The notes under the pieces were generated by a model that saw nothing but the letters and a program-made list of their open reading frames with translations, did no database searches and was not told the origin of the DNA. Below are positions 5,501 to 30,884 of a stretch of 37,196 bases of DNA, in pieces; position 1 is the stretch's first letter; the number at the start of each line of letters is the position of its first letter. The stretch is taken from positions 1-37,196 of the forward strand of contig JAJEEZ010000645.1 in assembly GCA_022820705.1 (NCBI GenBank), given 5' to 3'. This DNA is from Candidatus Latescibacterota bacterium. GTDB taxonomy: Bacteria > Latescibacterota > UBA2968 > UBA8231. The position numbers were made by a program, and so were the translations under genes.

Positions 5501-6466
5501 TTACCTCTCTTTCACGACTTCGGTGAGCTCAGCCGAGTCGCATTGAACGCCCTCGGCGGCTAGACCGAGGACCAAAGTTCGCGCGGCAATTCCCTCTTTG
5601 GCCCACGCTTGCTGCATGGCATCGGCCACCTCTGCACCCTGTCCGCTGACCAGCGCCAACGCGGTCGGCCCGGCCCCGCTCAACGCCGCACCCAACGCCC
5701 CAGCCTCTGTAGCCGCGGCCAACACCCCTTCCATCCCCGGAACCAAGGCCGTTCGATAGGGCTGGTGCAACCGATCTTGCATCCCAGTCCGCAGCAGACT
5801 GTAGTCGCCCCGTTGCAGCGCGGCCACCAACAAGCCGACGCGCCCGGCGTTAAATATCGCGTCCCGCCGCTCAATCCGCTCGGGCAGCACGCTCCGCGAC
5901 TTAGACGTGGGCAAGGGAAAATCCGGTACGGCCACGACCGCGGCCAAATCCCTCGGCGGCTCAATCCGCGCCCATGCAACCTCTTCGCCGTCCAAAGCTG
6001 CGATGACGATCCCTCCCAACGCGCAGGGCGCGACATTGTCCGGGTGTCCCTCCACAACCACGCCCTGCCGCAAAACCTCTTCTCGATCCAGCCCCATTCC
6101 GCACAGTTCGGCTCCGGCGGTTAAACCAGCGACTAAGGCCGCCGAACTGCTGCCCAACCCACTGGCCAGCGGGATATGGCTGTCAATCACCAAGCTCAGC
6201 CGCCCGGGCGTCTTGCCGGCCCGCGCATAGGCTTGCATCACCCCCTGATAGACCGCATTGCGCTCGTCCAAGGGCACGCTCCCGCTCCCCTCACCCGTGA
6301 CCACAATTTCCAAGCCCGCGCCCGCGCCTTCTTCCACTGTCAAATCCATGTACAATTCCAGTGCCAGTCCCAAGCAGTCAAAACCCGCGCCTAAATTCGC
6401 CGACGTGGCCGGTGCGCGCACTCTCACCTGTTTCACTGCCTTGTCCATGGAGGATCTCTTATCCAT
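5501..6466 (-). CDS. thrB: Homoserine kinase (GHMP kinase)
   Basis: APATSANLGAGFDCLGLAL and the GHMP motif PLASGLGSSSAALVAG. The start may instead be the internal ATG at 6448. Confidence 0.9.
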   Translation of the reverse strand: MDKRSSMDKAVKQVRVRAPATSANLGAGFDCLGLALELYMDLTVEEGAGAGLEIVVTGEGSGSVPLDERNAVYQGVMQAYARAGKTPGRLSLVIDSHIPLASGLGSSSAALVAGLTAGAELCGMGLDREEVLRQGVVVEGHPDNVAPCALGGIVIAALDGEEVAWARIEPPRDLAAVVAVPDFPLPTSKSRSVLPERIERRDAIFNAGRVGLLVAALQRGDYSLLRTGMQDRLHQPYRTALVPGMEGVLAAATEAGALGAALSGAGPTALALVSGQGAEVADAMQQAWAKEGIAARTLVLGLAAEGVQCDSAELTEVVKER

Positions 6467-6501: not shown

Positions 6502-7344
6502 ATGCGTATTGACTCCCATCTGCACGTCTTCGCCCGCCCCAGTGCCGAGTTCCCGCGCGAGATCACTTCAAGTATGCCCGCCGAGCGCGAAGCCCCCGTC
6601 GAGGATTTCTTGGCGCACATGGCCGACCACGCCATTGACAAAGCCGTGCTCGTGCAAACCGGCGGCACCAGCCTCGCGCATCACGCCTATTTACAACACT
6701 GCCTGCGCACCTATCCCGACCGCTTCTTAGGCATCGGCTTGATCCCGCCCGACGAGTCCTCACCCGCCGACCACATGGATCGCCTCGCCGCAGCCGGCTC
6801 GATCATCGGCTTCCGGCTCCGCTCTCTCGGCGACTTTTCCCGTCCGATATGGGAACACGCCGCCCGCAAAGACTACGTGCTCTGGCTCTACCTGCGCGCT
6901 ACCTCCGCCCCACTACTGCCCCAGTTCCTCGCGGATTTCCCCCAAGTGCGCGTCGTGATTAATCACCTCATGGTTTGCCCACGCGAGGATCGGTTCACTT
7001 GGGACGCCAAGGGCCGCCCGCAGATCGACACAGAGATGCCGCCGCCGACCGGATTCCTCGGCCCTGCGCCCGATTCGCCCAACGTCTGCGTCCATTTGTC
7101 GGGTCAATACGCCATGAGCAAGGCGGCCTATCCCTATCCCGACTTGGCCGCTTGGCACCGCAGCCTGCTGGACGCTTTTGGTGCCGAACGCCTGCTATGG
7201 GCTTCGGATTTTCCCTGGATTGTAGCCGACCCCGGCTACGGCGAATGCGTCGAGGTCCTTGATCACCTGCTGCCCGACCTGAGCAGCGAGCAGCGCCAAC
7301 TCATCATGGGCGAGACCGCGCGGCGGTTTCTCGGCTTTAGGTGA
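6502..7344 (+). CDS. Amidohydrolase-2 family metal-dependent hydrolase
   Basis: N-terminal RIDSHLHVF (HxH metal motif) and C-terminal ASDFPW, typical of this family. Confidence 0.8.
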   Translation: MRIDSHLHVFARPSAEFPREITSSMPAEREAPVEDFLAHMADHAIDKAVLVQTGGTSLAHHAYLQHCLRTYPDRFLGIGLIPPDESSPADHMDRLAAAGSIIGFRLRSLGDFSRPIWEHAARKDYVLWLYLRATSAPLLPQFLADFPQVRVVINHLMVCPREDRFTWDAKGRPQIDTEMPPPTGFLGPAPDSPNVCVHLSGQYAMSKAAYPYPDLAAWHRSLLDAFGAERLLWASDFPWIVADPGYGECVEVLDHLLPDLSSEQRQLIMGETARRFLGFR

Positions 7345-7395: not shown

Positions 7396-8211
7396 TCAAG
7401 GTACCTGAGCCGTGTTTTTCTTTAGGAATCGGATAAACTCTTGCCCAAGCTCTGTAACCTCTAGGAGTTCAGATGGGCCAGAAGTTGGGCCAAGATGCCC
7501 AAGACCGAATCCCCGAGTATAGAGAAGTGCCTTTGACATTAAATCTTGGATTAAAAAAGAGTACTCCGAATCCGAGACATTATAGTGACTCGGCTGGCAG
7601 TACTCAACGCTTGTATCACTATCGTCTTCCCCTGTATCCTCTCGTTCCTCAGCCGCCCGCAGATGTTCAGCCAAAATGCGCACTTGGATGTCTGACAGGG
7701 CAATCAACAGATCCAGAAAGCGATCGTCGAAAGGCGTACCTTCGGCGTGCTGCAACCGGCCCGCGAGTACTGCGGCCAGTTTTCTTCGCTTTTCCTCCGC
7801 TCTAACCTTGGCAGCTCGTATCAAGACATCTTCTAGGAAATCGACAAACTCTGGGCTGTGAATATAGGCGACATCAATTTTGTCGGTCTCAAGAGTCTGA
7901 AGGTTTTCTGCCAGATACCCCACGAACTTTTCGAGACGTTCCTGTTTAAGACGGGCGCGCCCTTCAAAAATAGCTTCGTTTAGCAGTGTTCCAACGTACG
8001 GGATTGCACCGACGAGTCCGCGAACCACCACTTCAGTCGATTTTTTGACGTAGGCTTCTGCGGGCAGAGACGTAGTGCTTACCACGCGACTGCGATCTTG
8101 TTTTGCAGCACCGCGCAAACGGTTTAGAAATCGGTCGAGATCGCCGCCGCACTCTTCCCAAATTTTCTGCCTCGTCTGGTGAATTTCTTCAACGATAGGA
8201 TCGCGGTTCAT
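7396..8211 (-). CDS. Antitoxin-like N-terminus fused to a ~215-aa helical plus winged-helix-like module; putative partner of the PIN toxin
   Basis: ATG 8211 is preceded by GGAGGAG. The longer 8331 start would run through the PIN gene in another frame. The N-terminus is MNRDPIVEEIHQTRQKIWEECGGDLDRF. Confidence 0.6.
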   Translation of the reverse strand: MNRDPIVEEIHQTRQKIWEECGGDLDRFLNRLRGAAKQDRSRVVSTTSLPAEAYVKKSTEVVVRGLVGAIPYVGTLLNEAIFEGRARLKQERLEKFVGYLAENLQTLETDKIDVAYIHSPEFVDFLEDVLIRAAKVRAEEKRRKLAAVLAGRLQHAEGTPFDDRFLDLLIALSDIQVRILAEHLRAAEEREDTGEDDSDTSVEYCQPSHYNVSDSEYSFLIQDLMSKALLYTRGFGLGHLGPTSGPSELLEVTELGQEFIRFLKKNTAQVP

Positions 8212-8692
8212 ATTCTCCTCCGGGCGGTTGCAAAAGTTCTTCAGGTGTAACAATGACAGGCATGTGAAGATGCAATTCCGAATTAATAGCTCCGAGCCGA
8301 CGAATGACTTCCCCATTAGCAATATGGGCACAATTCCATGTTACCAGATAGTCCATTGAGTATGTAACAGCTAAAGCAATATGGGGCAAGTCTATCTGGG
8401 CACGGCCTGTCAAACCGAGACGTTGAGCGTAGATGGAAATAAGGTCCTGCACCTCATTATTGAGCTCTATGACCGGCAATTTTTCCACGATCGCTAGACG
8501 ACGTGCGACTATATCTGGATCACCGAGACAAATTTCTGCCAACACAGCCTCGGAAATATATACATCGAAACGTTCGCGAGCACCGCGCCACCAATCACGT
8601 GTGATCTGCTGGTGAGCAGCAATAATAATATCTCGGCTTGGCCGAGCAGCTAAGTAACTGGGAATCGTCGTTTCCAAATAAACGGTTGGCAT
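8189..8692 (-). CDS. PIN-domain ribonuclease, VapC-like type II toxin
   Basis: 167 aa. VYLETTIPSYLAARPSRD ... MDYLVTWNCAHIAN matches a widespread PIN subfamily as I recall it. The gene starts 30 nt downstream of the obg stop. Confidence 0.8.
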   Translation of the reverse strand: MPTVYLETTIPSYLAARPSRDIIIAAHQQITRDWWRGARERFDVYISEAVLAEICLGDPDIVARRLAIVEKLPVIELNNEVQDLISIYAQRLGLTGRAQIDLPHIALAVTYSMDYLVTWNCAHIANGEVIRRLGAINSELHLHMPVIVTPEELLQPPGGEYEPRSYR

Positions 8693-20189: not shown

Positions 20190-21059
20190 TCAGCGCAATT
20201 CGCGCACAAACGACGGGCTGAACGCGCCGCGCGCTACTTCGGAGACCGGCCCCTTCATCGTCAGGTCGTAGCTTGCGCTCACGTCGATGTGCAATGTCCC
20301 ACCTGGGGCCCTAACCGCAACCGGACTTTTGACCAAGCCCAGCCGCACCGCCGCACTCGCAGCCGCACACGCCGACGATCCCGACGCCTGCGTTTCACCG
20401 GCACCGCGTTCCCAGATCAGGATGTAGATCGCATGAGGCCCCACGGGCACGGCGAGCTGTACGTTGATGCGCCGGGGGAAGAGCGGGTGATTTTCCAACT
20501 CTGGCCCCAAAGAGCATAGCTCGTCCTCAGTCCACCGAGCGCCCTGTTCGCGGAAGACGACGCAGTGCGGATTGCCGACGCTGACGCCGGTAAAGGTCAA
20601 AGTCTGCCCGCCGACATCAATCGGCTGCGCGACCAGCTCTTCGGCTTCCAGCGTGCAGGGCAAGGCTTGCGGCGCAAACGTCGCTCGCCCCATCTGCACC
20701 GTGGCGGTGCTGGCGTCACCATGCTGATCAATGTGCAAATCAACGCTCACTAAGCCGCCCTCCGTTTCGACCGTGAACTGCTGCTTTTGCACCTGGCCGG
20801 TGGCGTGCAGGTAGCGGGCGAATATCCGCAGACCATTGCCTGACTTTTCCGCCTCGCTGCCGTCGGGGTTGTAGATTTTCAGGCCAAAGTCGGCCTTTTG
20901 CGACGGTGCCAGCGCGAGAATGCCGTCGCTGCCCACGCCCCAATGGCGGTCGCAAATCGTGCGGATATTGTCTGGCGTCAGCTCAAAGCTGAGCCCAGCC
21001 GGATCAACGGCAATGTAGTCATTGCCGAGGCCGTGTCCCTTGAAAAATTCGTTGTCCAT
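20190..21059 (-). CDS. dapF: Diaminopimelate epimerase family protein, with both catalytic Cys positions occupied by Ser
   Basis: FKGHGLGNDY, NPDGSEAEKSGNGLR, GNPHCVVF and ERGAGETQASGSSACAA are colinear with DapF. The start is set at MDNEFF (ATG 21059). Confidence 0.8.
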   Translation of the reverse strand: MDNEFFKGHGLGNDYIAVDPAGLSFELTPDNIRTICDRHWGVGSDGILALAPSQKADFGLKIYNPDGSEAEKSGNGLRIFARYLHATGQVQKQQFTVETEGGLVSVDLHIDQHGDASTATVQMGRATFAPQALPCTLEAEELVAQPIDVGGQTLTFTGVSVGNPHCVVFREQGARWTEDELCSLGPELENHPLFPRRINVQLAVPVGPHAIYILIWERGAGETQASGSSACAAASAAVRLGLVKSPVAVRAPGGTLHIDVSASYDLTMKGPVSEVARGAFSPSFVRELR

Positions 21060-21219
21060 TATGCGTCCTTTCTCGTTTGTCTTACAGAACTTAGACCCCT
21101 GCTCAAGCAGGGTCAAACAAAGTTGCCGAGGGGAGGCCGGCCGGTATATTAGCCTTCATGTTGTGCTTAGTAGTAGCCCTCGCGGCAGAGGCGCGCCCGC
21201 TTATTGGCCTCCCACTGCC
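21046..21219. repeat. Left copy of a ~174-bp direct repeat (dapF-like 5' end + 98-nt divergent intergenic region + first ~60 nt of the nucleosidase gene)
   Basis: Aligns colinearly with 24930-25102. By eye there are about 10 differences, including one 1-nt indel. Confidence 0.85.
21094..21114. promoter_or_regulatory. Conserved stem-loop in the divergent intergenic region (GACC(C)CTGC-TCAA-GCAGGGTC)
   Basis: 8-bp stem with one bulged C and a 4-nt loop. It is identical in both repeat copies and lies ~35 nt upstream of the dapF-like ATG on the minus strand. Confidence 0.35.
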
Positions 21220-21447
21220 ATTTGCGCGTACTCAGCCAGCAGTTTCACGCGCTCCACGCCGAGCCACCCGGTCTCGCCGAGCCAACCGCCCGCTGGTAAT
21301 TCACGGCCACGCAACAGTATCAGTTGCGCGGCTTGCTCGCGCGCTGGCAAGCGCTGGCACCGGCGACTCCTGCCGTCAACAACGACTTGCTGGCCTTGCA
21401 AAGGCGCGATGAAGTGTTACGTTATCTTCAACGGCAGCTAGCGGCCA
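21158..21447 (+). pseudogene. Decayed copy of the nucleosidase gene (5' ~60 nt joined to the 3' ~230 nt; ~0.5-kb internal deletion, frameshift, TAA nonsense)
   Basis: MLCLVVALAAEARPL is identical to the start of the 25042 gene. 21219-21447 aligns with ~25600-25825 at roughly 80-85 % by eye. CAA in the intact copy is TAA here (TGG TAA at ~21295). Confidence 0.75.
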
Positions 21448-21491: not shown

Positions 21492-22607
21492 ATGAATAGT
21501 CCCCAAAGATATAACGCGCTAAGTCTTTTCTCTGGGGCCGGAGGAATGGATATAGGCGTACAGGATGCGGGATTCGATATTCTAGCACAAATAGAAATAG
21601 ATGAACACTGCTGCAACACCCTACGTGCGGCAAGAGAACGCGAAAAAAGAGATACCAAAATTATTGAGTCAGATATTAGAGAGATTGACCCAGCCGAACT
21701 TCGCAAAGACTTAAACCTAGAAAAAGGCGAACTCGATCTTCTTTTTGGAGGCCCCCCTTGTCAATCTTTCTCCTTAGCAGGAAAGCAACTTGGCTTAAAA
21801 GACGAGAGAGGCATGTTACTATTCGAGATTGTTCGGTTTTCCGAAGAGCTAGAACCAAAGGTGATTTTAGTTGAGCAAGTAAAAGGGCTTCTCTCATCAA
21901 AAGGATCCGAGCAGCGAAGAGGTGAAATTTTTGAGAAATTTTTAATAGCCTTAGAAAATGCTGGTTATTCTTCCAAATGGAGAGTTGTTTTAGCCGCAGA
22001 TTACGGCGTACCTCAACTGCGAGAGCGATTATTCGTAATCGCCACGCTGAAAAGAAACGGCTTCCTCTTTCCAGAACGAACATACGCACCGCTAGAAGAA
22101 TGTAATGGATTGTTCTCGTATAAACCTCATGTCGGTATCGGCTCCGTAATTGAAAATCTAGGAACACCTTCACCAAAAATTAGGGGAACTACTTTCTACG
22201 ACCGCGAGGACAGCCACGTCGATGTAACGCCAGCTAGGGACAGGGAACGCATCGAACAGGTTCCCGAGGGATCATATTTGGCAGCTCATCCTCACTTAGG
22301 TAAAAGATTACTCAGAGGTCTTAAATCAAAGGACACCACAAAGTATTTAAGGCTGCATAGGGATAGACCTGCTAATACATTAAGGTGTGGAGAGATTTTC
22401 TATCATCCCATCGAAGATAGGTATCTCACGCCACGGGAATATATGAGAATTCATGGCTATCCCGATTCATATATCCTAAAAGGACCTATACGCAGTAGAA
22501 CGGGTACCGTGAAAAACTTAGACCAGCATAGGCAAGTTGCGAATTCAGTTCCCCCTCCTCTCGCAGAGGCTTTGGCGAGCAAAATTTTCGAGTACCTAAA
22601 TGAGTAA
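21492..22607 (+). CDS. dcm: DNA (cytosine-5)-methyltransferase
   Basis: Motif I LFSGAGGMDIG, IV GGPPCQSFS, VI VEQVKGL, VIII QLRERLFVIA, IX LTPREYMRIHGYPDSY, X ANSVPPPLAEAL. SD GGAGGAG lies upstream. Confidence 0.9.
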   Translation: MNSPQRYNALSLFSGAGGMDIGVQDAGFDILAQIEIDEHCCNTLRAAREREKRDTKIIESDIREIDPAELRKDLNLEKGELDLLFGGPPCQSFSLAGKQLGLKDERGMLLFEIVRFSEELEPKVILVEQVKGLLSSKGSEQRRGEIFEKFLIALENAGYSSKWRVVLAADYGVPQLRERLFVIATLKRNGFLFPERTYAPLEECNGLFSYKPHVGIGSVIENLGTPSPKIRGTTFYDREDSHVDVTPARDRERIEQVPEGSYLAAHPHLGKRLLRGLKSKDTTKYLRLHRDRPANTLRCGEIFYHPIEDRYLTPREYMRIHGYPDSYILKGPIRSRTGTVKNLDQHRQVANSVPPPLAEALASKIFEYLNE

Positions 22608-23706
22608 AATTTTTGAAGTATTTGGCCATCCATTAACCTCAAATCATCCTGATGCGATTGACTGTCGCACGAGGGCTTGGTGTCCATTCATGGAGAATGA
22701 ATGTGATGGTGGAGGCAATAGGCATCTCTCCGCTTTGAATTTGCGGAACTATCCACAATTAGCTCAACAATTCCCTAAAAAAGATACTATTCAGGTTGGG
22801 GTCTGTTCACTCTTGGTGCGTGGGAAGCCTTGGATTGTTTGTCCTAGGCGCTTATTCGCCCTGCGGGATTCCAACTGTTCTCATCTTCAAGCAAGAGTTC
22901 GAGAGGACCTGATCCAATATAGCGGAGTAGATAGAGCAATCGAATATCGGGCATGGTCTGAGGTAAAGATAAAATTCTCAATGAATAAAAATGAAAAAGA
23001 GAAAACATTTGACTATACCTTCGACTACGTTTTGGCAGGAAGGTGCAGAAAATCACTTAGCGAAATATCAGAACTAGTTAAAAAGAGCGAGCGAGAATGT
23101 GAGAAAATTGCGACCCAAAACAAATTCACGCTAGAAAGGTATGCTGGAGAGCACTGGGTAGTCGATTTTCCCGCTGATCCAATAGTAATAGTCGAGGTGA
23201 TGACCTCATCTACCTCTGGGGGAAACAAAAAGAAGAGAACGCAAATAGGAATGGCTTTTGAAGATGCTATCTTGAAAGGAGACGACCACGAAGGCCCCGG
23301 TATTAACTATAGACAAGTATGGGCGCGAATGGTCAGTCAACTTATTGTAAAATCACAGGTTAGTTTGGCTTGGGGTGGAAAAACTATTTGGATTGTACAG
23401 GATGCTTTAGCGGACTATATTTCTTCTTCGACCGGACTGGATCTCCAACGATTCATCAGTAGCACTTCAGATGAGGTGAACATATTGTCCTTTGGATATG
23501 GGAACAATCCCGAGCCTGAAGAGGACTCCGGGATCGTCCCTCTATGTGAATCCCAGCTATATGCGGGACCTGTATCTTCAGCCAAAGGATCCGGTAAAAG
23601 TGGTGGATTTATGGACATCATCACTATTGGCGTACCACCTCCGAAAGATTACTTATGGAAATCGCTTTTCCGCAAGTCTCCGTGTGGTAGCGTTAATGTG
23701 CCGTAG
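22600..23706 (+). CDS. Type II restriction endonuclease, NotI-like family
   Basis: EVFGH, WCPF, EC, GVC and WIVCPRR are colinear with the NotI N-terminal Cys4 region as I recall it (FFGH, CPF, SC, GVC, WLVCPNR). FDYTFDY and IVIVEVMT occupy the PD-(D/E)XK positions. The ATG overlaps the methylase stop by 8 nt. Confidence 0.65.
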   Translation: MSKIFEVFGHPLTSNHPDAIDCRTRAWCPFMENECDGGGNRHLSALNLRNYPQLAQQFPKKDTIQVGVCSLLVRGKPWIVCPRRLFALRDSNCSHLQARVREDLIQYSGVDRAIEYRAWSEVKIKFSMNKNEKEKTFDYTFDYVLAGRCRKSLSEISELVKKSERECEKIATQNKFTLERYAGEHWVVDFPADPIVIVEVMTSSTSGGNKKKRTQIGMAFEDAILKGDDHEGPGINYRQVWARMVSQLIVKSQVSLAWGGKTIWIVQDALADYISSSTGLDLQRFISSTSDEVNILSFGYGNNPEPEEDSGIVPLCESQLYAGPVSSAKGSGKSGGFMDIITIGVPPPKDYLWKSLFRKSPCGSVNVP

Positions 23707-23744: not shown

Positions 23745-24527
23745 TCAGAAGGGTAATTCATCATAGTCTATGTATGGATTCTTCTCGGAGTATGGCTTCT
23801 CCTCAAAGGAATCAAGCAATGGCTGCAACTCCTTGGCCCACTCAGCAGTGGAGAAAAGGAGCTCTGCAGACAGTGAGTCGTAGTACCTTTTGTCGCCAGA
23901 CGACAGCCCATCTTTGCATAACCGGAGTATAAAGTCATTGGGTCTCTTCCCATACCCTATGAGGTATCGAAAGAAGTAGCGGAAGACGTAGTCCTGCTCG
24001 CCCCTATTGGGAGAACTGAGCTTCTTGGTTAACGTGTAGATTGCTTGGTCTCTTAACTCCATTGAATCAATAATATTGGCCAGCCAAGTGCCAAGTGCCC
24101 CCCCGAGATACTCTCCAGAATTTGCCTTGTACTCCCCTTCCTTGAGAGATTTCAGTAGCCGACTTTCGATCCGAAGCCTTGCTATGCGAGCGATCTGATT
24201 CCATTCGTCTCCAGCGAACACCTTGGTAGCAATCCTGATGGTAGCGTCATCTTCGGTTGTCTTGAGATCCTCAGATACCAGTGCCACAAACGCTGATCTA
24301 TCTTCCGCATCCAACCTATTGAGGATCGAGTGAGCCACTAGTCTCATCACTTGAGGATTTACTTCGGTCCGGGCTTCGTAGATGGCAGTCAGTGTATCGT
24401 TGAGCTTCTCCTTTGGTATCTCAGATACGATGAGATCTGTGTATTCCTCACTTTCAACGAAGTGTTCGTCACGGATTCTCTGAATCATATCTCCGATCTC
24501 GAAAGGTGCTTTGGCCTTATTGATCAT
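23745..24527 (-). CDS. Uncharacterised helical region; most likely the 3' part of the frameshifted TIGR02391-domain gene
   Basis: 260-aa ORF. Its frame stays open upstream to 24590 and there encodes KIEDNKEVADRILAFLDYLLQ, the expected end of the TIGR02391 domain. Confidence 0.6.
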   Translation of the reverse strand: MINKAKAPFEIGDMIQRIRDEHFVESEEYTDLIVSEIPKEKLNDTLTAIYEARTEVNPQVMRLVAHSILNRLDAEDRSAFVALVSEDLKTTEDDATIRIATKVFAGDEWNQIARIARLRIESRLLKSLKEGEYKANSGEYLGGALGTWLANIIDSMELRDQAIYTLTKKLSSPNRGEQDYVFRYFFRYLIGYGKRPNDFILRLCKDGLSSGDKRYYDSLSAELLFSTAEWAKELQPLLDSFEEKPYSEKNPYIDYDELPF

Positions 24528-24886
24528 CTGCAGGAGATAGTCGAGGAAGGCGAGGATCCGGTCAGCAACCTCCTTGTTATCCTCGATTTTTTATGGCTTC
24601 TCGGATTTCTTATAGCCTGCATAACGCCACGAAGAAGCGACCCCGTTCCCTTTTGAATATTCCTATCAGACTCGCTCCTGAGAGGAGTGAGTTTAAGCTT
24701 GGGATCAGATCCACCAAGTGCTTCGCCAACCAAGGAAACCCCATCGCTCTCGCATCCAGTACGATCACGAAGGACTTCATTCAATAGGAAGATAGAATCG
24801 AGAATAGCACCTGTGTAGTTCGCCTTTTCGTAGTTGGCATATATAGCCTTTGATAATTGTTCGGACAATTCAATTTGGATGTTCAT
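24524..24886 (-). CDS. TIGR02391 (Hypoth_Ymh) domain protein, 3' end out of frame
   Basis: YANYEKANYTGAILDSIFLLNEVLRD ... GSLLRGVMQAIRNPRSH matches the family signature (RNPxxH). After the A6 run the frame gives a junk tail, SRITRRLLTGSSPSSTISCR. SD AAGGAG lies upstream. Confidence 0.7.
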   Translation of the reverse strand: MNIQIELSEQLSKAIYANYEKANYTGAILDSIFLLNEVLRDRTGCESDGVSLVGEALGGSDPKLKLTPLRSESDRNIQKGTGSLLRGVMQAIRNPRSHKKSRITRRLLTGSSPSSTISCR

Positions 24887-24895
24887 GGATACTCC

Positions 24896-24943
24896 TTAGC
24901 CTGTTTGGACTATAGCTCCGCTGTTGTTCAATTCGTTGTTCAT
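24896..24943 (-). CDS. 15-codon upstream ORF derived from the duplicated dapF-like start (MNNELNNSGAIVQTG)
   Basis: The ATG is in the same context as the dapF-like ATG in the left repeat. The TAA stop overlaps the SD (TAAGGAG) of the TIGR02391 gene. Translation is unproven. Confidence 0.3.
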   Translation of the reverse strand: MNNELNNSGAIVQTG

Positions 24944-25102
24944 TATGTGCCCTTTCTCGTTTGTCTTACAGAACTTAGACCCCTGCTCAAGCAGGGTCAA
25001 ACCAAGTTGCCGAGGGGAGGCCAGCCGGTATATTAGCCATCATGTTGTGCTTAGTAGTAGCTCTCGCGGCTGAGGCGCGCCCGCTGTTGGCCTTCCACCG
25101 CC
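24930..25102. repeat. Right copy of the ~174-bp direct repeat
   Basis: See the left copy. The offset is 3884 nt. Confidence 0.85.
24978..24998. promoter_or_regulatory. Second copy of the conserved intergenic stem-loop
   Basis: Sequence identical to 21094-21114. Confidence 0.35.
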
Positions 25103-25878
25103 TCCAAGGCGTGAGCGACCATCCCTATCGCATCTGCGCGGGCGAGCAGACACACCTGATTGTCTCCGGCGTCGGTAAAATAGCCGCCGCAGCAGCCACG
25201 GCGTACCTGCGTGCATTGATCGGCGATACACCGGCTGCTTGGCTCAATATCGGTATCGCCGGCCACGGCAGCCAAGCAGTGGGGACGCCTCTGCTAGCGC
25301 ATAAGATCGTGGACGCAGCCAGCGGCAAGCCCTTTTACCCCACCTTCACCGCGCCCCCGCCCTGTCGCACCACTTTGCTACATACCGTCGATCGCGCACA
25401 ACCAGCTACTGGCGACGTTGCGTACGACATGGAAGCCAGCGGCTTTTGCGAGGCCGCCCAGCGCTTTGCCACCAGCGAGCGAGTCCACTGCCTCAAGGTA
25501 GTATCCGACAACCCGCAATCTCCCTATCAGACACTTAATGCGGAGAAAGTGGAGGCGTTAATAGAAACGCAACTCGATGCGGTCGCCCAAGTTGGCGAAC
25601 ATTTGCGAGCACTCAGCCAGCAGCTTCACGCACTACACGCCGACCCGCCCGGCCTTGCCGAGCTAACCACCCGCTGGCAATTTACCACTACGCAACAGCA
25701 CCAGTTGCGCGGCTTGCTCGCACGTTGGCAGGCGCTGTCAAAGACGCCCATTGTCAACGACGACTTGCTGGCCTTGCAAAACCGCGACGAAGTATTAGCC
25801 CATCTTAAGCAGCGGCTAGACGAAGTGGAGTTTTTTCTTATTCCAGAAGCGACGAAAGATGCTCAGGCAAAAGCCTAA
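25042..25878 (+). CDS. PNP_UDP_1 family nucleosidase/phosphorylase (MTA-/futalosine-nucleosidase-like) with a ~85-aa C-terminal extension
   Basis: LVVALAAEARPL N-terminus, SGVGKIAAA, GIAG and YDMEASGF motifs. The helical tail (TTRWQFTTTQQHQLRGLLARWQ) is not part of the standard fold. Confidence 0.7.
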   Translation: MLCLVVALAAEARPLLAFHRLQGVSDHPYRICAGEQTHLIVSGVGKIAAAAATAYLRALIGDTPAAWLNIGIAGHGSQAVGTPLLAHKIVDAASGKPFYPTFTAPPPCRTTLLHTVDRAQPATGDVAYDMEASGFCEAAQRFATSERVHCLKVVSDNPQSPYQTLNAEKVEALIETQLDAVAQVGEHLRALSQQLHALHADPPGLAELTTRWQFTTTQQHQLRGLLARWQALSKTPIVNDDLLALQNRDEVLAHLKQRLDEVEFFLIPEATKDAQAKA

Positions 25879-28723: not shown

Positions 28724-28999
28724 CTACTGGGTGATAGCAAGCCGGACGTTCAGTGTATCCAGCACTCTAAAGAGCGTGTCAATCCGCGGGTTGCCCTCGC
28801 TGGATAGCGCCCGGTACAACGCCTGCCGCCCCAGACCGCTGGCTTCGGCGATGGAGGACATCCCCTTGGCCCGGGCGACATTGCCGAGAGCCTTGGCGAA
28901 GTACTTCGGATCGTTTTCTTCTAGCGCTATGTTGAGGTATTCAATCAACGCCTCATCGTTGTCGAGAAAATCGATTACGTCGAATTTTTTGAGCTTCAT
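28724..28999 (-). CDS. HigA-family addiction-module antidote protein (HTH)
   Basis: MKLKKFDVIDFLDNDEALIEYLNIALEENDP...MSSIAEASGLGRQALYRALS...LDTLNVRL. A strong SD AAGGAGG lies 4 nt before ATG 28999. Confidence 0.8.
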   Translation of the reverse strand: MKLKKFDVIDFLDNDEALIEYLNIALEENDPKYFAKALGNVARAKGMSSIAEASGLGRQALYRALSSEGNPRIDTLFRVLDTLNVRLAITQ

Positions 29000-29050
29000 G
29001 ATGCCTCCTTTGAGCCAAGTCTCAAAGACCTCGGTATAGACGATTTCCAT
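29000..29050 (-). pseudogene. Remnant (about 17 codons) of the cognate RelE/ParE-type killer gene, fused in frame to the antitoxin
   Basis: MEIVYTEVFETWLKGGI resembles the N-terminal signature (T..F..WL) of the killer proteins paired with this antidote family. This assignment is from memory only. Confidence 0.35.
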
Positions 29051-30173: not shown

Positions 30174-30884
30174 ATGCGCGTCTTAGTCACCGGGGCCAGT
30201 TCCGGCATTGGCCGCGCCGTCTGTGAGAAGCTGCTCGCCAACGGCCATCGCGCCATCGGTATTGCCCGCGATTTCGGCAAGTTTTCCTGCGATGACCGCC
30301 GATTTAAAGCGCACGAAATTGACCTCGCCGACCTCGACCAGCTTCCCGACCATCTACAAAACCTCGTCGCCACCTACTCGGCTCTCGACGCCCTAGTCCT
30401 CAACGCCGGTGTAGGTCGCTTCGGCACCCTAGAGCAATTCTCCTACGAGCAAATCCGCGCCCTAATTGACCTCAACTTGACCAGTCACGTTTTCGTCGCC
30501 CGCGCTTTCCTTCCCTCCCTCAAAAAAGCTGGGCGCGGACACTTGGTCTTTATGGGTTCGGAAGCCGCACTCATCGGCACGGCTCAAGGCAGCTTGTACT
30601 GCGCGGCCAAGTTCGCTCTGCGCGGCCTCGCCCAAGCCCTGCGCGCCGAGTGCGCCCGTGCTGGCATCCGCGTCACGTTGGTCAATCCCGGCATGGTCCA
30701 GTCGCCCTTTTTCGACGAATTGGATTTCCGCCCCGGCCCAGAGTCCGACAACTACATTTTGCCGGAAGACGTCGCCGAGGTCATCGTCCAAGCTCTGACG
30801 GCGCGCGACGGCACAGTACTCGACGAAATCAACCTCTCGCCGCAAAAAAAAGTGATCGAGTTTGGCGCGCGGAAGAAAAAGTAA
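30174..30884 (+). CDS. Short-chain dehydrogenase/reductase (SDR)
   Basis: MRVLVTGASSGIGRA, NAG, YCAAK. The ATG lies 1 nt after the SPL stop. Confidence 0.85.
   Translation: MRVLVTGASSGIGRAVCEKLLANGHRAIGIARDFGKFSCDDRRFKAHEIDLADLDQLPDHLQNLVATYSALDALVLNAGVGRFGTLEQFSYEQIRALIDLNLTSHVFVARAFLPSLKKAGRGHLVFMGSEAALIGTAQGSLYCAAKFALRGLAQALRAECARAGIRVTLVNPGMVQSPFFDELDFRPGPESDNYILPEDVAEVIVQALTARDGTVLDEINLSPQKKVIEFGARKKK

What the first reader, a model, noticed from the sequence alone, without database searches (positions are those of the whole stretch)
23745..24886. TIGR02391 (Hypoth_Ymh) domain continues, across a 1-nt frameshift in an A6 run, into a 260-aa unknown region: a candidate novel ~380-aa defence protein next to the R-M system
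Seen (minus strand): the 120-aa ORF carries a clear TIGR02391-type domain up to ...GVMQAIRNPRSHKK and then a junk-like tail. The sequence at the shift is CAT AAA AAA TCG (T6 on the plus strand at 24587-24592). In the -1 frame the text reads (KK)IEDNKEVADRILAFLDYLLQMINKAKAPF..., which is the amphipathic last helix expected after RNPxxH. This frame runs without a stop into the 260-aa ORF, whose annotated Met is thus probably internal. One extra A would give a single ~380-aa protein. Knowledge: this domain has no assigned function. I recall it as a rare family, sometimes appended to other proteins and seen in phage, restriction or abortive-infection neighbourhoods. Inference: three readings are possible. 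It may be a fresh inactivating mutation or a homopolymer sequencing error. It may be slipped-strand ON/OFF switching, as in phase-variable R-M loci (A6/A7 is short for that). Or it may be low-level -1 slippage. The C-terminal 260 aa are all-helical with no motif I recognise. The convergent pairing with an R-M operon inside one island suggests a combined defence locus.
Basis: partly seen in the sequence, partly recalled or inferred. Interest (0 to 1): 0.8.

Follow-up and report, generated by a model that had tools for sequence, protein, structure and literature searches.

The report
Frameshifted HEPN RNase with SSB-like tail
A one-base deletion has split a gene for a widespread but untested two-domain RNase, probably an anti-phage suicide protein; the break itself is ordinary, but intact relatives almost all end in a copy of the short tail that the bacterial DNA-binding protein SSB uses to recruit its partners.

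Summary
The minus-strand ORFs 24886-24524 (120 aa) and 24527-23745 (260 aa) are two halves of one gene, broken by a 1-nt deletion in an A run (A6 at 24587-24592). The closest intact relatives have an in-frame A7 or GA6 and encode 379-380 aa.

The break is a real allele. The same A6 sequence occurs in three assemblies, and all 15 syntenic neighbour genes are intact. No intact copy of this strain is on record. Nothing supports programmed frameshifting or selected phase variation.

The protein is not an orphan. At least 627 clusters (50% identity) carry the C-terminal domain, and in the listed hits it nearly always follows an N-terminal Ymh/TIGR02391 domain, a HEPN RNase family with an invariant RNPRSH motif.

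The C-terminal part is a confidently modelled ARM/HEAT-like solenoid with no solved relative. It ends in a disordered acidic tail whose consensus, DDDIPF, equals the SSB C-terminal tip.

The gene is a solo cassette in mobile contexts. A homologue sits in the variable region of a P2-like prophage. The R-M neighbour is specific to this Latescibacterota clade.

The best reading is a recently inactivated single-gene abortive-infection RNase, analogous to (not homologous with) DARNA/PD-T7-3.

The parts
24524..24886 (-). ORF1, 120 aa. It comprises residues 1-100 of the HEPN (Ymh/TIGR02391) domain followed by 20 out-of-frame residues. The start ATG is at 24886-24884.
   Evidence: TIGR02391 matched over 2-96 of 125 only. 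tblastn of the intact relative aligns its residues 1-100 in frame -2.
24892..24897 (-). Shine-Dalgarno-like AAGGAG, spaced 5 nt from the ATG.
   Evidence: Read directly from the sequence.
24593..24610 (-). Codons for R93-N-P-R-S-H98, the Rx4H catalytic motif of HEPN RNases.
   Evidence: R93, N94, P95, R96 and H98 are invariant in 54 homologues. Motif definition from PMC3710099.
24587..24592 (-). A6 run (T6 on the plus strand): the site of the 1-nt deletion. Intact relatives have A7 or GA6 here.
23745..24527 (-). ORF2, 260 aa. It begins at the internal Met122, and the true reading frame continues upstream to the A run. It encodes the end of HEPN helix 4, the whole alpha-solenoid domain and the tail.
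   Evidence: relative's residues 100-379 align in frame -1. AF2 model of the 95%-identical P0001: pLDDT 88.9, helices 131-359. The profile of this domain finds 627 clusters.
23748..23765 (-). Codons for the C-terminal Y-D-E-L-P-F, the SSB-Ct-like acidic tip. The family consensus is D-D-D-I-P-F.
   Evidence: 219 of 264 family proteins end in PF. In a control of 1168 ORFs from the fetched loci, all 41 that end in [DE][DE][ILVM]PF are this gene. SSB-Ct = DDDIPF per PMC5872125.
24896..24943 (-). 15-codon leader ORF (MNNELNNSGAIVQTG*). Its ATG and first four codons are a copy of the dapF start, and its stop overlaps the Shine-Dalgarno site of the HEPN gene.
24930..25096 (.). Right copy of a 167-nt direct repeat, 92% identical to 21046-21212. 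It duplicates the dapF/278-aa-gene divergent promoter region and probably supplies the promoter of the HEPN gene.
21046..21441 (.). Left island border. It holds the original dapF promoter region (21046-21212) and a decayed, internally deleted duplicate of the 278-aa gene (21219-21441, 81-84% identical to 25600-25819).
   Evidence: L009 carries an 870-bp version of this duplicate.
21492..22607 (+). C5 cytosine DNA methyltransferase (Dcm type), the first gene of the R-M pair in the same low-GC island.
   Evidence: PF00145 216.5 bits, TIGR00675 186.8 bits, PADLOC MTase_II. GC is 0.43-0.50 against about 0.62 in the flanks.
22600..23706 (+). Putative type II restriction endonuclease, 368 aa. It overlaps the methylase gene by 8 nt and is convergent with the HEPN gene, with a 38-nt gap between the stop codons.
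   Evidence: No Pfam, NCBIfam or PDB match. One faint PADLOC REase_II hit (E = 0.0021). 1268 unnamed homologues. A 56%-identical homologue again lies directly downstream of a PF00145 methylase.

Best explanation
The locus is a recently inactivated allele of a single-gene HEPN toxin or defence protein. The intact protein (~380 aa) has three parts. The first is an N-terminal Ymh-type HEPN domain (residues ~1-125, catalytic R93x4H98), predicted to be a metal-independent RNase. The second is a ~235-aa ARM/HEAT-like alpha-solenoid (~130-360). The third is a ~20-aa disordered acidic tail ending in D-[DE]-[IL]-P-F, a copy of the bacterial SSB C-terminal tip.

Inferred mechanism. The RNase is kept silent until the solenoid and tail module senses an infection cue connected with ssDNA or SSB. 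One possibility is ssDNA not covered by host SSB, as for DARNA. Another is a phage protein that docks on the SSB tip, with the tail acting as bait or as an autoinhibitory plug. RNA cleavage then arrests the cell (abortive infection).

In this window an A7 to A6 deletion two codons after the catalytic His cuts off the last HEPN helix and uncouples the sensor. The gene is therefore off, or at best leaky through rare slippage.

Shown: the frameshift, the single-protein architecture, HEPN membership, the fold class, the tail motif, the solo-gene and mobile contexts, and the reality of the allele. Inferred: RNase activity, defence role, and what the sensor and tail recognise.
For: Frameshift and architecture.

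Real allele. An identical A6 sequence occurs in ENA assemblies of two BioSamples and in a Logan assembly. One of the three may be the window's own source assembly. The other 15 syntenic genes are intact. The four 7-8-nt homopolymers in the window break no ORF: the two inside syntenic genes, A8 at 30844-30851 and C7 at 24098-24104, lie within single-frame tblastn alignments, and the other two lie within long listed ORFs.

Recent event: dN/dS of window versus relatives is 0.27-0.37, no higher than among intact pairs at 0.37-0.50.

Recurrent, non-site-specific loss. At least 7 of 56 species-representative loci are disrupted. Members of the 90% cluster are broken at other positions, and no intact copy of this strain is on record; the closest intact member is 96.8% identical.

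HEPN: PF09509 and TIGR02391 score above their cut-offs, RNPRSH is invariant, and the family assignment is in PMC3710099.

Fold: AF2 pLDDT 88.9. Only weak ARM/HEAT matches in the PDB (best E = 0.013), and no sequence match.

Modularity: the C-terminal module with a VKDVPF tail is also fused once to a CHAT protease.

Tail: consensus DDDIPF in 219 of 264 proteins, and disordered in the model.

Defence-type context. Neighbours include an integrase, recombinases and transposases, with no conserved partner. A 383-aa homologue (hhalign E = 3.7e-46) lies between the replication genes and portal gene Q of a P2-like prophage. From my own recall of P2 genome organisation, this is the old/tin variable region; PMC9122126 supports only that P2-like phages carry defence hotspots.

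Functional analogue: DARNA has an N-terminal HEPN domain plus a Pds5/HEAT-like C-terminal domain. It is a tRNase activated by ssDNA presented by phage SSB.
Against: No member of this family has been tested, so RNase activity, toxicity and phage defence are all inferred. PADLOC-DB 2.0 has no full-length model; only the HEPN domain matches PD-Lambda-3_B and Aga_HEPN. The family shows no detectable homology to DARNA/PD-T7-3, so the analogy is architectural only. Most immediate neighbours in 41 loci are housekeeping genes, and only a few are defence genes, so island enrichment is modest. The enterobacterial prophage homologue lacks the DDIPF tail, so the tail is not essential to every branch. Consensus assemblies cannot exclude a minority A7 subpopulation. 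The three assemblies are of one strain from related samples, and one of them may be the window's source.
Confidence: 0.72

Rival explanations
1. Sequencing or assembly error. The organism really has A7 and an intact gene, and the A6 is a homopolymer miscall.
For: The change is a 1-nt indel in a homopolymer, the classic error type. The reading frame is otherwise perfect and dN/dS is not relaxed. Related long-read MAGs show split genes elsewhere (L002).
Against: The same A6 sequence occurs in two ENA scaffold assemblies from different BioSamples and in an independent Logan assembly, at 99.98-100% identity over 3.9-4.8 kb. All 15 other syntenic genes are intact. The four longer (7-8 nt) homopolymers in the window break no ORF.
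Confidence: 0.07
2. Slipped-strand phase variation. The A6/A7 tract is a contingency switch that turns a costly toxin or defence gene OFF and ON in the population.
For: The tract length differs among close relatives: A7 is in frame, A6 is out of frame. Toxic defence genes are plausible targets for reversible silencing. Consensus assemblies cannot reveal minority variants.
Against: A 6-7 nt run is short for an efficient switch (own knowledge of contingency loci). Half of the close relatives have GA6 instead, and more distant homologues have no run at all. No intact allele of this strain exists among 15 cluster members. Other copies are broken at unrelated positions, which fits random decay rather than a dedicated switch.
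Confidence: 0.08
3. Programmed -1 ribosomal frameshifting or transcriptional slippage on A AAA AAA yields full-length protein as the normal expression mode.
For: A -1 slip of tRNA-Lys on AAA AAA would re-pair perfectly and produce exactly the 380-aa protein (inference from the sequence). A low incidental level of slippage is likely.
Against: Every homologue examined at this site except the window and L061, including the 93-97%-identical relatives, encodes the protein in one frame with the same downstream sequence. The 100 nt downstream fold no better than shuffles (z = -0.25). There is no conserved two-frame arrangement.
Confidence: 0.04
4. A functional two-protein split. A truncated HEPN peptide and a free sensor-plus-tail protein (the stop and start overlap as ATGA) now act separately, for example with the sensor-only protein as a regulator or decoy.
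For: The 260-aa ORF starts exactly at the domain boundary, and its ATG overlaps the ORF1 stop codon (ATGA), an arrangement compatible with translational coupling.
Against: There is no Shine-Dalgarno-like sequence before the internal ATG. ORF1 lacks the fourth core helix of the HEPN bundle. Short homologues in the databases start at inconsistent positions and look like fragments. 195 of 264 fetched proteins are 340-440 aa.
Confidence: 0.03

Closest known systems
Ymh family of the HEPN superfamily (Pfam PF09509 Hypoth_Ymh / TIGR02391; Anantharaman et al. 2013, PMC3710099)
   Same: The N-terminal 125 residues match both models above their cut-offs. The Rx4H motif (RNPRSH) is invariant. The model shows a four-helix core. 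The family has a reported association with R-M loci, as seen here.
   Different: The architectures listed in 2013 were solo domains and fusions to paraMORC, AbiJ-NTD1 and AbiTii. The C-terminal ARM/HEAT-like solenoid with an SSB-type tip is not among them.
DARNA / PD-T7-3 (bioRxiv 10.64898/2026.02.22.705581)
   Same: It is a single-gene system with an N-terminal HEPN RNase domain followed by a C-terminal all-helical HEAT/Pds5-like sensor domain. Its biology is connected to SSB: ssDNA presented by phage SSB activates tRNA cleavage and abortive infection.
   Different: There is no detectable sequence homology: no PD-T7-3 hit for any of 54 members at E <= 1. DARNA is 456 aa against 380 aa here, and its HEPN subfamily differs. 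No SSB-Ct-type tail on DARNA is mentioned in the passages of the paper I searched. Oligomeric state and activator are unknown for the present family.
PD-Lambda-3 component B and pAgo-associated HEPN (PADLOC Aga_HEPN, short-pAgo/HEPN systems)
   Same: They share a Ymh-like HEPN domain. All 54 members hit both models (E down to 2.4e-19 and 2.9e-16).
   Different: Similarity is confined to the HEPN domain. In those proteins the HEPN domain is C-terminal and works with a partner protein. Here it is N-terminal, with its own sensor and no conserved partner.
PrrC / RloC type anticodon nucleases linked to restriction-modification systems
   Same: These are HEPN-superfamily RNases that sit next to an R-M system as a second line of defence. 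That is the logic proposed for Ymh-paraMORC fusions in PMC3710099, and it is the arrangement seen in this window.
   Different: There is no ATPase domain. The R-M here is a type II Dcm pair rather than type I. The R-M linkage is not conserved outside the Latescibacterota clade.
C-terminal tip of bacterial SSB (SSB-Ct, DDDIPF)
   Same: The last six residues of the family consensus are identical to SSB-Ct. They follow a disordered acidic linker, often with an extra Phe at position -8 to -10, as in E. coli SSB ...DFDDDIPF (PMC5872125).
   Different: There is no OB fold and no homology to SSB. Only the tip is mimicked.
Hypoth_Ymh domain-containing protein of P2-like prophages (Escherichia phage vB_EcoM-813R9, URC10481.1; Klebsiella phage Kp4865-2)
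   Same: It is homologous over both the HEPN domain and most of the solenoid (hhalign probability 100, E = 3.7e-46, 306 columns). It is 383 aa and is encoded between the replication genes and portal gene Q, which from my own recall of P2 organisation is the old/tin variable region.
   Different: It is about 27-29% identical, ends in ...ELLGQIS without the DDIPF tip, and is also untested as far as the searched library shows.

Membership tests
HEPN superfamily, Ymh family (PF09509 / TIGR02391) | Score above the curated cut-off of the family models over the whole domain | tested here: met
   Repaired protein: PF09509 85.2 bits (cut-off 25), profile positions 4-118 of 119. TIGR02391 62.4 bits (cut-off 39.45), positions 2-124 of 125.
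HEPN superfamily, Ymh family (PF09509 / TIGR02391) | Conserved Rx4-6H catalytic motif | tested here: met
   R93-N-P-R-S-H98, with R93, N94, P95, R96 and H98 invariant in 54 homologues. Motif definition in PMC3710099.
HEPN superfamily, Ymh family (PF09509 / TIGR02391) | Four-helix up-and-down bundle | tested here: met
   In the AF2 model, helices 9-20/24-43, 49-57, 72-97 and 105-124 have pLDDT of about 90. This is a prediction only. The window allele loses helix 105-124.
HEPN superfamily, Ymh family (PF09509 / TIGR02391) | Endoribonuclease activity | not testable with these tools
   Needs biochemistry.
DARNA / PD-T7-3 | Sequence homology to PD-T7-3 | tested here: not met
   No PD-T7-3 model among the PADLOC hits of 54 members at E <= 1. 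No PDB sequence or fold match. Whether the 9tra-9tre entries were in the copies searched could not be checked.
DARNA / PD-T7-3 | N-terminal HEPN domain plus C-terminal HEAT-like helical sensor in one polypeptide | tested here: met
   AF2 model plus weak Foldseek ARM/HEAT hits, compared with the description.
DARNA / PD-T7-3 | Activation by ssDNA; dodecamer; tRNA anticodon cleavage | not testable with these tools
   Needs experiments.
PD-Lambda-3 (two-gene system) | Presence of both components A and B | tested here: not met
   Only the HEPN part of B is matched (residues 20-100). There is no conserved neighbour in 41-47 loci.
Bacterial SSB | OB-fold ssDNA-binding domain | tested here: not met
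   No SSB or OB Pfam hit. The model is all-alpha apart from one hairpin.
Bacterial SSB | Disordered acidic C-terminus ending in D-D-D-I-P-F | tested here: met
   The consensus of the last six residues is DDDIPF in 219 of 264 proteins. The window has YDELPF. pLDDT is below 50 for residues 369-378.
Phase-variable contingency locus | Long simple-sequence tract conserved in relatives, with ON and OFF lengths in one population | tested here: not met
   The tract is 6-7 nt, is replaced by GA6 in four relatives, and is absent from distant homologues. No ON allele of this strain is in the databases. A minority population is not testable without reads.
Programmed -1 ribosomal frameshift | Two-frame arrangement conserved in homologues, plus a downstream stimulatory structure | tested here: not met
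   Homologues are in one frame. Fold z-score is -0.25.
Type II restriction-modification system (neighbouring genes) | Methyltransferase with catalytic family match | tested here: met
   PF00145 216.5 bits, TIGR00675 186.8 bits.
Type II restriction-modification system (neighbouring genes) | Cognate endonuclease | tested here: inconclusive
   No family or PDB match, and only a faint PADLOC REase_II hit. The methylase-then-368-aa gene pair, with overlapping ends, recurs with a 56%-identical homologue in an unrelated genome.

The most novel reading that the evidence does not exclude
The conserved DDDIPF tip is a functional mimic of the host SSB C-terminal tail. It would plug this HEPN RNase into the SSB interaction hub. 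It could act as bait for phage proteins that dock on the SSB tip (recombinases, replication or anti-SSB proteins), so that binding switches on the RNase. Alternatively it could be an intramolecular plug that is displaced when ssDNA or an SSB-Ct-binding protein appears. That would be a decoy- or guard-type immune sensor built on the SSB tail. I found no description of this in the searchable literature.
Probability: 0.3. Interest if true: 0.75.

Novelty: new variant of a known kind. Interest (0 to 1): 0.5.

Why it matters
As a feature of this window the finding is modest: a recently broken copy of a mobile toxin or defence gene.

The family behind it is more interesting. It is large and spans several phyla (Latescibacterota, Acidobacteriota, Chloroflexota, Bacillota, Pseudomonas and others). 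It folds confidently and is absent from the defence catalogue I could search. It combines a HEPN RNase with a sensor that ends in an exact copy of the SSB interaction tip.

Several recent systems (Retron-Eco8, Hna, AbpAB, DARNA) show that phage SSB and ssDNA are favoured infection signals. A defence protein that itself wears the host SSB tail would add a new logic to that theme. It is directly testable with a tail deletion and pull-downs.

The locus also shows how such genes are lost quickly. At least 7 of 56 species-representative copies are disrupted.

Tried and rejected
1. Foldseek of the high-confidence model against the PDB and BFVD gave only weak generic ARM/HEAT hits (best E = 0.013, TM <= 0.36), or nothing. 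A profile search of PDB sequences found nothing. No template-based function can be assigned to the solenoid.

2. PADLOC on the repaired protein, on 54 members and on the prophage homologue gave no full-length model and no PD-T7-3 hit. A weak RT_UG33 C-terminal similarity appeared in 6 of 54 members (best E = 1.2e-6) and was not pursued.

3. I searched for other effectors fused to the sensor. One CHAT-protease fusion turned up (P0244). Searching with it showed it is a singleton, since the related CHAT proteins carry other C-terminal modules. Modularity is therefore suggestive, not established.

4. I looked for a conserved partner gene by all-against-all BLAST of the neighbours of 47 loci, and by Pfam and PADLOC scans of 145 neighbour ORFs. 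There is none.

5. I scanned JGI metagenome contigs for A-run length variants of this clade and found 0 hits, which is uninformative. The look-up of the 90% cluster was more useful.

6. I tried to identify the restriction enzyme with Pfam, NCBIfam, PDB and names in 1268 homologues. It has no name and no family.

7. The promoter and terminator consensus scan around the gene gave nothing above shuffle expectation.

8. Literature searches for TIGR02391/Hypoth_Ymh, SSB-Ct mimics or decoys in defence found no study of this architecture.
Full report
**1. The observation**

On the minus strand the window reads ...AGA AAT CCG AGA AGC CAT AAA AAA TCG AGG... The A6 run lies at 24592-24587. ORF 24886-24524 encodes 120 aa, ending in 20 junk-like residues. 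ORF 24527-23745 encodes 260 aa. Inserting one A gives an uninterrupted 380-aa ORF.

The 120-aa ORF matches TIGR02391 only over model positions 2-96 of 125. The repaired protein matches positions 2-124 of 125 (62.4 bits, cut-off 39.45), and matches Pfam PF09509 over 4-118 of 119 (85.2 bits, cut-off 25).

**2. One protein, not two**

All carry PF09509 and most are 370-390 aa. The nearest is 95% identical and 380 aa.

A profile of the C-terminal 256 residues alone was searched against 1.84 billion representatives. It found 627 clusters (277 at E <= 1e-30). In the listed hits the domain nearly always starts at residue ~122 of a ~375-aa protein. Shorter hits begin at inconsistent positions and look like fragments.

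At the DNA level, the closest intact relatives are Candidatus Latescibacterota MAGs, 93-97% identical to the window. Two of them (L003, L049) have CAT AAA AAA ATC and four (L001, L002, L009, L010) have CAT GAA AAA ATC, all in frame. The window has lost one base.

**3. Real allele or artefact?**

tblastn of the 16 genes of the syntenic relative L001 shows that 15 are in one frame in the window. Only this gene is split. The window's four 7-8-nt homopolymers break no ORF. The two that lie inside syntenic genes (A8 at 30844-30851 and C7 at 24098-24104) sit within single-frame tblastn alignments. The other two lie within long listed ORFs.

The exact 260-aa product, preceded by the same 120-aa ORF, is encoded on contigs from two ENA metagenome assemblies (BioSamples SAMN22237341 and SAMN22237343) and from an independent Logan assembly of SRR16351692. 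These are 99.98-100% identical to the window over 3.9-4.8 kb and carry the same A6. One of these assemblies may be the window's own source. An assembly error is therefore unlikely.

The 90%-identity cluster holds 15 sequences. Ten are intact at 379-380 aa, but none is identical to the repaired window protein; the best is 96.8% identical. So no ON version of this strain is on record. Other members are truncated at other positions, at 226 aa, at 294 aa, or with the tail lost.

Among 56 family loci in species-representative genomes, at least seven are disrupted by frameshifts, deletions or insertions at various sites.

dN/dS between the window copy and its relatives is 0.27-0.37. That is no higher than among intact copies, at 0.37-0.50, so the break is recent.

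The A run is absent from more distant homologues. The 100 nt downstream fold no better than shuffled sequence, with z = -0.25. Programmed frameshifting and a dedicated phase-variation tract are therefore not supported. A minority A7 subpopulation cannot be excluded without reads.

**4. What the protein is**

The N-terminal domain belongs to the Ymh family. Anantharaman et al. (2013) placed this family in the HEPN RNase superfamily and noted its association with R-M operons (PMC3710099). The motif RNPRSH is the Rx4H catalytic signature, and R93, N94, P95, R96 and H98 are invariant in 54 homologues.

An AlphaFold2 model of the 95%-identical P0001, built with a 54-sequence alignment, is confident (pLDDT 88.9, pTM 0.72). 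It shows a HEPN helical core to residue 124, an all-alpha solenoid from 131 to 359 with one small hairpin, and a disordered tail.

Foldseek finds only weak ARM/HEAT resemblance, to importin-alpha and the PP2A A subunit (best E = 0.013). Nothing appears in BFVD or by sequence against the PDB.

PADLOC-DB 2.0 recognises only the HEPN domain, through PD-Lambda-3_B and Aga_HEPN, in all 54 members. It has no full-length model and gives no PD-T7-3 hit.

**5. The SSB-type tail**

This feature was not in the finding. The family ends in a nearly invariant acidic tail. 219 of 264 fetched proteins end in PF, and most of the rest are truncated or frameshifted fragments. The consensus of the last six residues is D-D-D-I-P-F, often with a Phe at position -8 to -10.

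That is the hexapeptide of the SSB C-terminal tip, the docking site for SSB's many partner proteins (PMC5872125). E. coli SSB ends ...DFDDDIPF (own knowledge). The window encodes YDELPF at 23765-23748.

As a control I examined 1168 ORFs of at least 100 aa in all fetched loci. The 41 that end in [DE][DE][ILVM]PF are all this gene.

A single CHAT-protease protein (P0244, 695 aa) carries the same solenoid with a VKDVPF end. This indicates that solenoid and tail form one transferable module, but the fusion is a singleton.

Five literature searches found no description of an SSB-tip mimic on a defence or toxin protein.

**6. Context**

The gene lies in a 3.9-kb low-GC island (GC 0.43-0.50 against about 0.62) between dapF and a 278-aa gene.

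The island also holds a Dcm-type methylase (21492-22607) and an overlapping 368-aa gene (22600-23706). The latter has no family assignment. A 56%-identical homologue again follows a PF00145 methylase in an unrelated genome, so it is probably the cognate endonuclease.

The three-gene island is conserved in the Latescibacterota relatives. Elsewhere the HEPN gene is a solo cassette. It lies next to a Bro-N gene, an RNase T/NYN pair and transposases in Pseudomonas baetica. It lies inside a serine-recombinase element in Bacillus, and beside a tyrosine integrase in a Gemmatimonadales MAG.

No neighbour recurs among 47 loci, and the commonest neighbour families are integrases and transposases, with 3 of 145 ORFs each. 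A few neighbours are defence genes: a DRT reverse transcriptase, Mrr, SocA/Panacea, PDC-S02 and methylases.

A 383-aa homologue covering the HEPN domain and most of the solenoid (hhalign E = 3.7e-46) lies between the replication genes and portal gene Q of a P2-like prophage. From my own recall of P2 genome organisation, this is the old/tin variable region. PMC9122126 supports only that P2-like phages carry defence hotspots. This homologue lacks the tail.

**7. Mechanism**

The following points are shown:
- a HEPN catalytic domain;
- a covalently attached helical module that is conserved as a unit with an SSB-tip ending;
- solo, mobile, frequently pseudogenised genes.

The rest is inferred. I propose an abortive-infection RNase whose C-terminal module is the sensor.

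The closest functional precedent is DARNA/PD-T7-3. [quoted passage not shown] The present family is not detectably homologous to it, so the analogy is architectural.

For the tail I consider three options:
- bait for phage proteins that target the host SSB tip;
- an intramolecular plug comparable to the acidic tails of SSB, gp32 and gp2.5, which compete with ssDNA (own knowledge);
- a tether to host SSB-binding proteins at replication forks.

None of these can be tested with the tools available here. In the window allele the break comes two codons after the catalytic His and removes helix 105-124, so the product should be inactive.

**8. Verdict**

It is partly outdated or unsupported on the unknown domain, on novelty and rarity, on phase variation and slippage, and on an obligatory partnership with the R-M.

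The locus itself is an ordinary young pseudogene. The family is an untested variant of the HEPN single-gene defence theme with an unusual and testable SSB-tail feature.

Noticed in passing
window 21046-21212 and 24930-25096; 21219-21441 and 25600-25819: The low-GC island is bracketed by direct repeats. One is a 167-nt copy (92%) of the dapF/278-aa-gene divergent promoter region. The other is a decayed, internally deleted copy (81-84%) of the 3' part of the 278-aa gene. Relative L009 keeps an 870-bp version. The island therefore arrived with, or caused, a duplication of its target region.
   Followed up: partly
window 24896-24943 (minus strand): The HEPN gene sits behind a duplicate of the dapF Shine-Dalgarno site, ATG and first four codons. 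This forms a 15-codon leader ORF (MNNELNNSGAIVQTG*) whose stop overlaps the Shine-Dalgarno site of the HEPN gene. The gene is probably driven by a copied housekeeping promoter.
   Followed up: partly
window 28724-29002 (minus strand); L003 4574-5146: The window has a HigA-like antitoxin gene (PF21716 dnstrm_HI1420 plus HTH_3) without its toxin. Relative L003 has the Gp49/HigB-type toxin gene directly upstream. L001 and the window lack it, with the alignment break at window 29010.
   Followed up: partly
window 7396-8692 (minus strand): A second low-GC stretch (GC 0.49-0.55) holds two overlapping ORFs (7396-8331, 311 aa; 8189-8692, 167 aa) with no Pfam match. It could be another island or another split gene.
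   Followed up: no
L061 about 6290-6310 (Acidobacteriaceae MAG CAVRXY010000010.1): A distant family member is frameshifted at almost the same place as the window, three codons after the catalytic His (q1-102 in frame 1, q102-393 in frame 3), but without a long homopolymer. It is from a long-read MAG, so it may be an error.
   Followed up: partly
L049 about 7110-7143 (Latescibacterota MAG JAJDVZ010000138.1) and cluster member P0506: In a close relative with an otherwise intact gene, the last five residues (DELPF) are replaced by unrelated sequence (ends ...YVGLTHR / ...SVGYWPCLRS). This is a natural tail-less variant.
   Followed up: no
protein P0244 (695 aa, JGI, 92.6-kb contig): This is a CHAT (PF12770) protease fused through a coiled coil to the same solenoid module, ending in VKDVPF. 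It is a singleton. Related CHAT proteins carry WD40, TPR, FGE-sulfatase and other C-terminal modules.
   Followed up: yes
L068 4959-6110 (Escherichia phage vB_EcoM-813R9, ON470620.1); also Klebsiella phage Kp4865-2 and 22 Klebsiella plasmid records: An enterobacterial branch of the family (383 aa, no DDIPF tail) is encoded between the replication genes and portal gene Q of a P2-like prophage. From my own recall of P2 genome organisation this is the old/tin variable region. The Klebsiella plasmid hits were not inspected.
   Followed up: partly
family proteins, residues about 80-256: There is weak similarity to the C-terminal 180 residues of the PADLOC RT_UG33 (DRT) model in 6 of 54 members (best E = 1.2e-6). 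It spans the end of the HEPN domain and the first part of the solenoid.
   Followed up: no
L002 10951-11956 (ENA ctg192909_6x_l): In the low-coverage relative contig, the methylase and dapF genes are split (146 aa; 43 + 248 aa), although the same contig's HEPN gene is intact. This illustrates that indel errors do occur in those long-read assemblies.
   Followed up: no
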